Below, in pieces: positions 1,554-3,001 of a stretch of DNA of 19,652 nucleotides; positions within the stretch are counted from its first letter, which is position 1; every line of letters starts with the position of its first letter. Origin of the DNA: a virus (taxonomy: Duplodnaviria > Heunggongvirae > Uroviricota > Caudoviricetes); IMG/VR virus record IMGVR_UViG_3300027836_000006; one strand, given 5' to 3'. The notes below the pieces were generated by a model. It was not told the origin of the DNA. It was given only the letters and a program-made list of their open reading frames with translations, and did not search any database. A program made the translations under genes and the position numbers.

Positions 1554-2360
1554 ATGATGTATAATCAAAAGTTAGTAGCCTCTATCAAATCAAAAGGCAA
1601 AGTGCTCCGTGAATTTAAGGACACTGTCTATATTCCATTCGCTAGCGAATATAGTATCTTACTCAAGAACCTCAATAATGTACGTGCTTTGGTAAACGTG
1701 TTTATCGACGGAGAGAATGCCGTTCCTGGCGGATTGGTCATAGACCCGGGTCGGACTGTCGACTTAGAGCGTTGGATTAAAAACGGCAATCTCACCGAAG
1801 GTAACAAGTTCAAGTTCATTGAACGTACCAAATCGATTGAAAACGGCCCACGTGGTATTAAACTAGAAGACGGATTGATCAGTATCGAATATCAGTTTGA
1901 ATTGCCGCGTCCTGTTATCAACGTTCCGAACTGGTCATGGAATTCAACACCTGTATATGGTAACAACAATGTAATGCGTGGCCTTGGTAGTTCAAATGTC
2001 AGTGGTAGCACAGGCGACTGGGCAAGCCCTATGGGAGTTACATGTAGTGCTACTTTGAATAGCGTATCATCTGACTCGTTCACAGTAACAGCAAGTGGTG
2101 CAAGTTTTCAAAACGAAACTGGCATCACTGTGCCAGGTAGTAAAAGCGAACAGAAGTTTGTTGAAACATCAATCGGCACTTTGGATTTACAAAAGAATAC
2201 TATTGTGCTAAAACTTGTCGGAGACTTAGGACAGAACAAGCCAGTGTTGAAACCAGTCACTGTTAAAGCAAAGCCGAAGTGTGTGACATGTGGCAAGCAA
2301 AACAAAGCTCATGCTAAGTTCTGTAGCGAGTGCGGAACGGCGCTCGAAATATTTGCTTAA
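1554..2360 (+). CDS. hypothetical protein with C-terminal zinc ribbon
   Basis: AAGGA RBS; CVTC...CSEC motifs at C terminus. Confidence 0.75.
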   Translation: MMYNQKLVASIKSKGKVLREFKDTVYIPFASEYSILLKNLNNVRALVNVFIDGENAVPGGLVIDPGRTVDLERWIKNGNLTEGNKFKFIERTKSIENGPRGIKLEDGLISIEYQFELPRPVINVPNWSWNSTPVYGNNNVMRGLGSSNVSGSTGDWASPMGVTCSATLNSVSSDSFTVTASGASFQNETGITVPGSKSEQKFVETSIGTLDLQKNTIVLKLVGDLGQNKPVLKPVTVKAKPKCVTCGKQNKAHAKFCSECGTALEIFA

Positions 2361-2381
2361 TATCACATAGGCATATATAAT
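2353..2381 (+). promoter_or_regulatory. sigma70-type promoter
   Basis: TTGCTT-N17-TATAAT followed by a GAAA-loop hairpin and RBS. Confidence 0.6.
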
Positions 2382-2428
2382 TAATACACACGGGGTGAAA
2401 GTCCCCGTACTAACTAAAGGAAATAAAA

Positions 2429-3001
2429 ATGAAATAGATTGAATATGCTTGTAAGGATGTAGTGTTCCATTTTAACAAAAAACACTTAGAAGATCAGACC
2501 ATTCCTATGTGGGTCTTAAAATTTCATGGGGAGACATTATATGTCAATCATGTAGACTGTCAGCTGCCTTGGAGCACTAAGGAAACGCCCGACAATCCGT
2601 CTACAAAAGGTAGCATCAAAGTTAAGAACGCACTATTGCGTATTGACGATGATAATCACGCTACACTAACAGAACTTACAATTTACGACAAGTTCCGTTT
2701 ACGAAATCAAAAGTTAGGTATCACTAGAATTATGTTCCAACCTGGGTCTGCTATGTACAAGGCTCTGGCAAAGAATGAATATAAGCACAGTGCCTTTAAA
2801 AACATTCGCGGTGCTTGTTCGAGTGCTTACATCATCTGTGACTTGTTAGATAGGAAAGAAACATTGTTAGCCCGTATCAAGTACGACGATTGGCGAGAAC
2901 TCAAACCAAACGAAGGATACTATCAAGACTACGATAATATCAAAGGCGACAACATTCCAGTTGATTACGGACATCCTAGTACACCTTATGAATACAGTTA
3001 A
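2429..3001 (+). CDS. hypothetical protein with in-frame TAG at codon 3
   Basis: AAGGA RBS then ATG AAA TAG ATT GAA..., in frame with ORF 2462-3001. Confidence 0.65.

What the first reader, a model, noticed from the sequence alone, without database searches (positions are those of the whole stretch)
2353..3001. Gene with TAG as its third codon: a likely client of the suppressor tRNA
Seen: promoter (2353-2381), 5' hairpin, RBS aaagga and ATG at 2429 are followed by AAA TAG (2435-2437) and then 188 open codons (MK*IEYACKDVVFHFNKKH...). The ORF track's GTG start at 2462 has only a possible aagga RBS. The 469-aa TROVE-like ORF, and the part of the rIIA ORF I translated, contain no in-frame TAG. 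TAG ends only three tiny ORFs, one backed by TAA. Inference: sparse amber gating of specific genes rather than genome-wide recoding.
Basis: partly seen in the sequence, partly recalled or inferred. Interest (0 to 1): 0.76.

Follow-up and report, generated by a model that had tools for sequence, protein, structure and literature searches.

The report
Amber-gated gene served by phage suppressor tRNA
A large lake phage keeps a stop codon (TAG) as the third codon of one gene and carries its own TAG-reading tRNA nearby, and the same pairing recurs in hundreds of related phages, so this is probably a built-in translational switch and gives phage suppressor tRNAs a first identified target gene.

Summary
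A ribosome-binding site (AAGGA), ATG 2429, AAA and TAG 2435-2437 are followed by 187 open codons ending at TAA 2999-3001.

The TAG is not an error or a mutation. 134 of 135 distinct homologous loci carry TAG at exactly this position, after variable leaders of 1 to 9 codons. They never carry TAA or TGA there.

Every locus with enough flanking DNA has a covarying tRNA-CUA on the same strand, usually 31 nt to 8 kb upstream. In the window it lies at 957-1030.

The predicted fold needs the residues between the TAG and the annotated GTG. That GTG is absent in about a quarter of the sequences.

This is not genome-wide recoding. A complete 360-kb relative uses TAG as an ordinary stop, has an uninterrupted capsid gene, and has only this one gated gene.

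One result is new. The conserved N-terminal domain is fused or adjacent to PTH2-like peptidyl-tRNA hydrolases in other phages. There, PTH2 or PTH2-like genes themselves carry an N-terminal TAG right after a tRNA-CUA.

My reading is a two-part module: a suppressor tRNA plus an amber-gated, PTH2-linked gene. The protein's biochemistry and the logic of the gate remain inferred.

I found no paper describing the module.

The parts
908..935 (+). Consensus sigma-70-type promoter (TTGACA, 16 nt, TATAAT) in front of the suppressor tRNA
   Evidence: 12 of 12 hexamer matches
957..1030 (+). tRNA with anticodon CUA (amber suppressor). It belongs to a covarying family with invariant G1-C2-G3 / C70-G71-C72, A73 and an encoded CCA end
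   Evidence: alignment A2; model R1
2353..2382 (+). Possible promoter of the gated gene (TTGCTT, 17 nt, TATAAT). The -35 box matches only 3 of 6
   Evidence: direct reading. It is not listed by the consensus scan
2390..2408 (+). 5' hairpin (6-bp GC-rich stem, 7-nt loop) ahead of the ribosome-binding site. It is shared by a subset of relatives
   Evidence: the same hairpin appears in the upstream sequence of L007, L017, L024-L029, L040
2417..2421 (+). Shine-Dalgarno sequence AAGGA, 7 nt before the ATG
   Evidence: AAGGA/AAGGAG stands at this spacing before the ATG in the relatives
2429..2434 (+). Start codon ATG plus one sense codon (leader Met-Lys). In relatives the leader varies from 1 to 9 codons
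2435..2437 (+). In-frame TAG, the amber gate. It is invariant in the family and always followed by A
2438..2680 (+). Conserved N-terminal all-beta domain (motif FHFNK ... STKETPDN..TKGS). It starts at the codon right after the TAG
   Evidence: pLDDT 97; no fold match, best Z 3.4
2681..3001 (+). C-terminal ferredoxin-like (ACT/RRM-like) domain and the TAA stop
   Evidence: Z about 5, generic fold; not PTH2-like by hhalign

Best explanation
The gene at 2429-3001 is translated from ATG 2429, and its third codon, UAG, is read as a sense codon by the phage's own tRNA-CUA (957-1030). Without that tRNA the ribosome releases only Met-Lys. The TAG is therefore a selected gate that ties synthesis of this protein to UAG-suppression activity in the infected cell. 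It is neither a mutation nor part of a genome-wide code change. The protein has a novel beta-rich 'FHFNK' domain followed by a ferredoxin-like domain. In other phages the FHFNK domain is fused or adjacent to PTH2-type peptidyl-tRNA hydrolases, and PTH2 or PTH2-like genes are themselves amber-gated just after a tRNA-CUA. I therefore read the whole as a two-component module: a suppressor tRNA plus an amber-gated, PTH2-linked gene for tRNA/ribosome recycling. In this module the amount of the recycling factor tracks, and possibly feeds back on, suppressor activity. What is shown: conservation of the gate, linkage to the tRNA, the need for the post-TAG residues in the fold, the absence of general recoding, and the PTH2 association. 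What is inferred: actual readthrough, the residue inserted, the protein's biochemical activity, and the direction of the regulatory logic.
For: TAG is invariant at this position: 59/59 viral loci, 116/117 metagenome loci, 134/135 distinct sequences, and 5/5 large relatives report '1 TAG' inside the match. The leaders differ (MK, MS, MA, MSQQ, MTK, M and others), yet the stop is never TAA or TGA, although TAG is the rarest stop in these phages (TAA 632, TGA 243, TAG 51). A tRNA-CUA lies on the same strand in every locus with enough upstream DNA, often 31-330 nt before the gene. Apparent exceptions were rescued by the covariance model. In the cultured phage RHph_I1_18 the unannotated homolog reads M-S-E-F-M-TAG-AAC and ends 10 nt before tRNA-CUA. 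The codon after the TAG is ATT, ATA, ATC or AAC, that is, a sense codon rather than a start. Residues 2-13 after the TAG form the first beta strand at pLDDT 96-97. There is no general recoding. PTH2 link: P0183 and three other cluster representatives are PTH2-like + FHFNK fusions. Phosso has PTH2 two genes upstream of its homolog. G006 lacks the family but has PTH2 (PF01981, E 1.3e-28) with ATG-ACG-TAG 263 nt after its only tRNA-CUA. L231, L234 and L261 have gated PTH2-like genes. L360-L364 have tRNA-CUA followed by a gated PTH2-like gene and/or a gated FHFNK gene.
Against: There is no direct evidence of readthrough: no peptides, no ribosome profiling. The tRNA resembles no isotype closely, so its charging is unproven. 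ATT follows the TAG in 131 of 135 sequences, and AUU can act as a weak start codon. Some tRNA-CUA loci with 8 kb or more of downstream DNA show no gated gene in the stored piece. Phosso has a tRNA-CUA of another lineage but an ungated homolog. G002 also carries ungated PTH2 and PTH2-like genes. The protein's function is not established: there is no Pfam or PDB match, and its C-terminal domain is not detectably PTH2-like.
Confidence: 0.78

Rival explanations
1. Mini upstream ORF with reinitiation. ATG-AAA-TAG is a two-codon leader ORF that truly terminates, and the ribosome then restarts at the adjacent ATT (a weak start, as in infC). The protein is made without any suppressor.
For: ATT directly follows the TAG in 131 of 135 distinct sequences. 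One relative (L132) starts the protein with ATG at exactly the TAG position, coupled to an upstream ORF through an ATGA overlap, so a protein beginning near this point is functional.
Against: A terminate-and-restart device should accept any stop codon, yet TAG is used 134 times and TAA or TGA never, in genomes where TAA is the commonest stop. The next codon is ATA, ATC or AAC in four lineages, including cultured RHph_I1_18, and AGA, ACA, GTT or AAC in the gated PTH2-type genes. None of these are start codons. The model does not explain the constant linkage to tRNA-CUA.
Confidence: 0.07
2. Neutral dependency. A TAG arose by chance in a dispensable N-terminal position of a gene beside a suppressor tRNA and is merely tolerated. 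It is read through but has no regulatory purpose.
For: In homologs without the TAG, the equivalent position is not conserved (M, T, R, N), so any inserted residue would do. The gene lies close to the tRNA.
Against: A neutral TAG could revert to a sense codon by any of eight single-base changes, yet it is kept in 134 of 135 distinct sequences spanning 55-95% protein identity. The same placement within the first 10 codons recurs in three sequence families: FHFNK, canonical PTH2 and PTH2-like. TAG does not appear inside other genes of the same genomes.
Confidence: 0.1
3. Genome-wide or block-wise code change (TAG = Gln, table 15), as in crAss-like and Lak phages. This gene would simply be one recoded gene.
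For: About half of the database homologs were predicted with Q at this position. A suppressor tRNA is present. TAG is the rarest stop.
Against: That Q is the TAG itself read under code 15 (contig L087 carries TAG where P0003 shows Q). In complete relative G002, 33 of 321 long ORFs end in TAG. TAG-split ORFs are no more frequent than TAA- or TGA-split ones (35/8608 versus 52/13031 and 65/16528). The gp23 capsid gene has no internal stop, and only one gene carries an N-terminal TAG.
Confidence: 0.03
4. The code-11 annotation is right: the protein starts at GTG 2462 (or at ATG +24) and the upstream ATG-AAA-TAG is irrelevant.
For: Gene callers chose this start (ORF 2462-3001; the 178-180-aa and 165-aa database classes). 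An AAGGA stands 5 nt before the GTG.
Against: The eight codons before the GTG are conserved as protein with synonymous change. The GTG is GTC/GTT/GTA in 34 of 135 sequences. The AAGGA is lost wherever Lys is AAA (35 of 135). 21% of sequences have no canonical start before Met +24. The first beta strand (residues 2-13) would be cut. tblastn to distant phages aligns from residue 4-5.
Confidence: 0.02

Closest known systems
Stop-codon-recoded phages with suppressor tRNAs (crAss-like, Lak and other gut phages; Borges et al., bioRxiv 10.1101/2021.08.26.457843)
   Same: A phage-encoded tRNA-CUA is proposed to read in-frame TAG, and the recoding is proposed to control when particular genes are translated.
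   Different: In those phages, dozens to hundreds of in-frame TAGs concentrate in late and lysis genes, and TAG is lost as a stop. Here there is one gated gene per genome, always within the first 10 codons, beside the tRNA. TAG still ends about 10% of long ORFs, and the capsid gene is uninterrupted.
Suppressor tRNAs of standard-code jumbo phages, e.g. XacN1 (Yoshikawa et al. 2018, PMC5852040)
   Same: A tRNA-CUA in a large, tRNA-rich phage that otherwise uses the standard code.
   Different: The XacN1 authors read through the 18 amber stops and could not identify any target gene. Here a conserved target is identified, and it sits at the N-terminus of a gene, not at a C-terminal extension.
Pyrrolysine system (pylT tRNA-CUA with in-frame UAG in methylamine methyltransferase genes); from general knowledge
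   Same: A dedicated tRNA-CUA gene is genetically linked to a small set of client genes that keep a conserved in-frame UAG.
   Different: No pylS or pylBCD genes were seen. In this family the UAG lies in a non-conserved N-terminal position, not at a catalytic residue, so the act of suppression seems to be what is selected, not a special amino acid. ARAGORN's 'tRNA-Pyl' label reflects the anticodon only.
prfB (RF2) autoregulation through an early in-frame stop codon; from general knowledge
   Same: A translation-related gene carries a conserved early in-frame stop, so its own synthesis reports how that stop is being decoded.
   Different: prfB needs a +1 frameshift at UGA, and its product is the factor that reads the stop. 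Here the frame is unchanged, readthrough needs a tRNA, and any feedback by the product is hypothetical.
PTH2 peptidyl-tRNA hydrolase of jumbo phages (PF01981; Iyer et al. 2021, PMC7824862)
   Same: PTH2 or PTH2-like genes are fused to, adjacent to, or interchangeable with the FHFNK gene behind tRNA-CUA, and they share the same amber gate.
   Different: The window protein itself has no PTH2 signature. Iyer et al. discuss PTH2 in ribosome rescue, and the passages searched do not mention a stop-codon gate or a suppressor tRNA.

Membership tests
Code-15 (TAG-recoded) phages | Many genes, especially late and lysis genes, contain in-frame TAG | tested here: not met
   In G002 the gp23 match has no internal stop. 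TAG-split ORFs are not enriched over TAA/TGA-split ones, and only one N-terminal gate exists. The same holds in 1.1 Mb of loci.
Code-15 (TAG-recoded) phages | TAG is abandoned as a stop codon | tested here: not met
   TAG ends 33 of 321 long ORFs in G002 and 46 of 288 in G006.
Code-15 (TAG-recoded) phages | Phage-encoded tRNA-CUA | tested here: met
   Window 957-1030. One per relative genome.
Dedicated suppressor-tRNA / client-gene readthrough | In-frame UAG conserved across homologs while the flanking codons evolve as coding sequence | tested here: met
   134 of 135 distinct sequences, with synonymous variation on both sides.
Dedicated suppressor-tRNA / client-gene readthrough | A cognate tRNA gene co-occurs with the client | tested here: met
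   Found on the same strand, 31 nt to 8.4 kb away, in all loci with enough DNA. L061 and L062 have a tRNA with an 8-nt CCCUAAC anticodon loop.
Dedicated suppressor-tRNA / client-gene readthrough | The full-length protein contains a residue at the UAG position | not testable with these tools
   This needs proteomics or ribosome profiling. Support is indirect: the fold needs the residues directly after the TAG.
Termination-reinitiation at a mini upstream ORF | Any stop codon would serve, and a usable start codon follows it | tested here: not met
   Only TAG is used. The following codons include AAC, ATA, ATC, AGA, ACA and GTT.
PTH2 peptidyl-tRNA hydrolase (PF01981) | The window protein matches the PTH2 profile | tested here: not met
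   No Pfam family at E up to 1. hhalign of the C-terminal domain against PTH2/PTH2-like gives probability 1%. The link is by fusion and neighbourhood only.
prfB-like autoregulatory stop | The product acts on decoding of its own in-frame stop | not testable with these tools
   The function of the FHFNK protein is unknown. The association with PTH2 is suggestive only.

The most novel reading that the evidence does not exclude
The tRNA-CUA and its single amber-gated client form a natural two-component translational circuit. The client is an FHFNK-domain or PTH2-type peptidyl-tRNA hydrolase gene. Its synthesis measures UAG suppression. Its product then acts on peptidyl- or aminoacyl-tRNA, possibly on the suppressor itself, or on ribosomes that ran through stops. 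The phage could thereby hold suppression at a set level or match rescue capacity to it. This would explain why standard-code phages carry suppressor tRNAs, and it would give a function to a new, widespread protein domain.
Probability: 0.35. Interest if true: 0.9.

Novelty: new variant of a known kind. Interest (0 to 1): 0.8.

Why it matters
Suppressor tRNAs are common in large phages that otherwise use the standard code, and their targets have been an open question. The XacN1 study looked and found none. This finding offers a concrete, conserved target. The target sits at the first few codons of a gene, which is not where people looked; they looked at C-terminal extensions.

The target is tied to peptidyl-tRNA hydrolase biology. 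It is present in a cultured phage (Rhizobium phage RHph_I1_18), where the gene is currently unannotated, so the idea can be tested directly.

It also exposes a systematic annotation error. Public protein sets hold this family either truncated (code-11 calls at GTG or ATG) or with an invented glutamine (code-15 calls). A natural amber-gated gene with its matching tRNA is also a ready-made orthogonal switch of the kind synthetic biologists build.

Tried and rejected
- **Sequence searches with no function:** DNA-level search of the phage collection found nothing. Pfam gave no family and PHROGs only a marginal hit. The ESM Atlas gave no usable hit. A PDB sequence profile search gave nothing.
- **Fold searches:** Foldseek and VIA-align on the whole model and on the N-terminal domain alone gave no convincing fold for the N-domain (best Z 3.4, with scattered partial ADP-ribosyltransferase and OB-like rows). 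The C-terminal domain matched only a generic ferredoxin-like/ACT/RRM fold at Z about 5.
- **Amino-acid identity of the tRNA:** similarity to the phages' other tRNAs showed no clear nearest isotype, so the inserted residue is left open. From memory, an A73, G1:C72, CUA tRNA would tend to be charged with Lys or Gln in E. coli. This was not tested.
- **Whole genome of the window:** none is held, so two near-complete relatives were fetched instead.
- **Checking which code produced the database proteins:** The question was answered through contig L087.
- **Widening the PTH2-like set:** a scan with alignment A4 failed because no conserved stretch was available. The single-protein PTH2 query found only itself.
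- **First tRNA pattern:** it had wrong gap lengths and found nothing. It was corrected.
- **Idea that TAG-less homologs occur only where there is no tRNA-CUA:** this holds for Atu_ph07, which has only a UCA suppressor. It is weakened by Phosso, which has a distant-lineage tRNA-CUA 270 kb from its ungated homolog.

Full report
**1. The observation**

AAGGA lies at 2417-2421, followed by ATG 2429, AAA and TAG 2435-2437. After that come 187 sense codons to TAA 2999-3001.
- A 6-bp hairpin (2390-2395 pairing with 2403-2408) precedes the ribosome-binding site.
- The suggested promoter has a perfect -10 box but a poor -35 box, and the consensus scan did not list it.
- ARAGORN finds 37 tRNAs in the window, including a tRNA with anticodon CUA at 957-1030. 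A perfect consensus promoter stands at 908-935.

**2. The TAG is a family-wide feature**

A protein search found 1460 relatives in three length classes.
- The roughly 190-aa class shows Q where the window has TAG.
- Contig L087, which encodes one of these proteins (P0003), carries TAG at that codon. The Q is therefore a code-15 gene call, not a real glutamine codon.

The DNA of related loci shows the gate directly.
- In 59 of 59 IMG/VR loci that include the N-terminus, the DNA reads Shine-Dalgarno, ATG, 1-9 variable codons, TAG, then ATT GAA.
- A metagenome scan used a pattern that begins after the TAG. It returned 117 usable loci, and 116 have TAG immediately upstream.
- Pooled, 134 of 135 distinct sequences have TAG, and the next base is always A.
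- The leaders differ (MK, MS, MA, MSQQ, MTK, MSK, MQ, bare M and others), but the stop is never TAA or TGA. Yet long ORFs in the same loci end in TAA 632, TGA 243 and TAG 51 times.
- The single exception, L132, has ATG at the TAG position. That ATG overlaps (ATGA) the stop of an upstream helical ORF, which is homologous to the N-terminal part of the fused proteins of phages Phosso and Atu_ph07.

**3. The annotated GTG start is wrong**

- The eight codons between the TAG and the GTG are conserved as protein, with synonymous change.
- The GTG codon is GTC, GTT or GTA in 34 of 135 sequences.
- 21% of sequences have no canonical start before Met +24.
- tblastn to distant cultured phages aligns from residue 4-5.
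- AlphaFold models are confident: pLDDT 91.5 for the whole protein and 97 for the N-terminal domain. Both place residues 2-13 after the TAG in the first beta strand.

**4. Linkage to the suppressor tRNA**

- Every viral locus with enough upstream DNA has a tRNA-CUA on the same strand, from 31 nt to 8.4 kb upstream. In one locus it is 8.6 kb downstream.
- Two loci that ARAGORN missed were recovered with a covariance model.
- L061 and L062 have a tRNA with an 8-nt CCCUAAC anticodon loop about 190 nt upstream.
- The tRNAs form one family: invariant G1-C2-G3 paired with C70-G71-C72, A73, an encoded CCA end, and compensatory changes in the stems.
- They are not close to any isotype carried by these phages, so the inserted amino acid is unknown.
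- In cultured Rhizobium phage RHph_I1_18 the homolog is unannotated. It reads M-S-E-F-M-TAG-AAC-GAA and ends 10 nt before the annotated tRNA(cta).

**5. This is not genome-wide recoding**

- In 1.1 Mb of loci, long ORFs split by TAG are no more common than those split by TAA or TGA.
- The N-terminal gate pattern occurs 57 times with TAG, all in this family, against 0 with TAA and 1 with TGA.
- I fetched a complete relative, G002 (360,683 bp, with terminal repeats). Its gp23-like capsid gene has no internal stop. TAG ends 33 of 321 long ORFs. It has one tRNA-CUA and one gated gene, which is this family.

**6. The link to peptidyl-tRNA hydrolase**

A scan for the tRNA family itself gave 96 confirmed tRNA-CUA loci. 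58 of them hold the gene in the stored piece.

One near-complete genome, G006 (327,992 bp), has the tRNA but no homolog. The positive control for that search gave 5 of 5.
- Its only clear gated gene lies 263 nt after the tRNA and reads ATG ACG TAG AAC.
- That gene is a canonical PTH2 peptidyl-tRNA hydrolase (PF01981, E 1.3e-28).

Other loci repeat the theme.
- Three more tRNA-CUA loci (L231, L234, L261) have gated genes homologous to the PTH2-like N-terminal domain of P0183.
- P0183 and three other cluster representatives are fusions of that PTH2-like domain with the FHFNK domain.
- In L361, L363 and L364 the order is tRNA-CUA, a PTH2-like gene gated at codon 7-10, then an FHFNK gene with a plain ATG.
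- In L360 both the FHFNK gene and the PTH2-like gene are gated. In L362 the FHFNK gene is gated.
- Phosso has PTH2 two genes upstream of its ungated fused homolog.
- G002 additionally has ungated PTH2 and PTH2-like genes elsewhere.
- The window protein itself is not a PTH2. Its N-terminal domain matches no solved fold with confidence. Its C-terminal domain is a generic ferredoxin-like fold.

**7. Interpretation**

The best reading is readthrough of an N-terminal UAG by the phage's own tRNA-CUA, kept by selection as a gate. The gate has appeared, or been kept, in three sequence families that are physically fused or adjacent: FHFNK, PTH2 and PTH2-like. So it most likely couples the production of a peptidyl-tRNA / ribosome-recycling function to suppressor activity.

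Two questions remain open. One is whether the product protects against the side effects of suppression or limits the suppressor itself. The other is what the suppressor does beyond this gene. tmRNA genes lie in the same neighbourhood in many loci, which fits a translation-quality-control context.

The rivals fit the data poorly: reinitiation at ATT, neutral tolerance of the TAG, general recoding, and the GTG start. The reasons are given under each rival.

**8. Prior knowledge**

- Borges et al. describe multi-gene TAG recoding of late genes and note suppressor tRNAs in standard-code relatives.
- The XacN1 paper reports two tRNA-CUA genes with no identifiable target.
- Iyer et al. note PTH2 in jumbo phages, and the passages searched say nothing about stop codons or suppressors.
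- Three full-text searches found no description of an N-terminal amber gate tied to a phage suppressor tRNA.
- An earlier agent of this scan, working on the tRNA at 908-1030 of this same window, had already proposed that it unlocks this gene. I tested that link independently and extended it.

**9. Limits**

- No whole genome is held for the window.
- All evidence for readthrough is comparative.
- Counts of loci are not phylogenetically independent, although 135 distinct sequences with 16 different leaders span 55-95% protein identity.

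Noticed in passing
Database proteins P0003-P0122 (homologs of window 2429-3001): Public protein sets hold this family in two wrong forms. About half are truncated at GTG or ATG (178-181 aa or about 165 aa). About half are full length with Q at the gate because a code-15 gene caller read TAG as Gln, as in P0003 versus contig L087.
   Followed up: yes
L340:1792-2196 (= G006 241792-242196); L254:787-1191: A canonical PTH2 peptidyl-tRNA hydrolase gene with TAG as its third codon lies 263 nt after the only tRNA-CUA of a 328-kb phage genome that lacks the FHFNK family.
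   Followed up: yes
L061:9735-9811 and L062:1539-1615: The tRNA directly upstream of a gated homolog has an 8-nt anticodon loop (CCCUAAC), which ARAGORN cannot assign (Arg or CUA). It may be an unusual suppressor.
   Followed up: partly
L209, L231, L233, L264, L297: Some phage contigs carry two different tRNA-CUA genes within about 1 kb. L362 carries both a tRNA-CUA and a tRNA-UCA (opal).
   Followed up: no
L004, L006, L014, L024-L029, L031, L032, L038, L040, L041 and others: Phage-encoded permuted tmRNA genes lie within a few kb of the tRNA-CUA / gated-gene pair in roughly 40% of loci. In L040 and L041 they sit immediately after the gated gene.
   Followed up: partly
window 1554-2360: A 268-aa protein has a C-terminal zinc ribbon and no other recognisable domain. 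It is the commonest protein-coding neighbour, lying upstream of the gated gene in 27 of 45 distinct loci.
   Followed up: partly
window 3291-3830 and 3830-4336: An AhpC/TSA-like peroxiredoxin and a CMD (AhpD-like) protein follow the gated gene in 20 of 45 distinct loci. The gated protein has several conserved cysteines, so a redox link is conceivable but was not tested.
   Followed up: no
L132 (reverse strand, gene start about 1779 in gene orientation): This is the only TAG-less close relative. The gene starts with ATG at the gate position, and that ATG overlaps (ATGA) the stop of an upstream helical ORF homologous to the N-terminal half of the Phosso / Atu_ph07 fused proteins. No tRNA is present in the 9.4-kb piece.
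   Followed up: partly
window 2-433: The open-ended ORF at the window start matches Pfam PF09694 (Gcw_chp, a bacterial protein of unknown function) at E 4e-20, which is unusual cargo for a phage.
   Followed up: no
L001:1478-1728 (MN988519.1, about 11000-11250, minus strand): In cultured Rhizobium phage RHph_I1_18 the gated homolog (76-aa core domain only) is not annotated at all. It fills the gap between the methyltransferase EVB91_024 and tRNA(cta) EVB91_023.
   Followed up: yes
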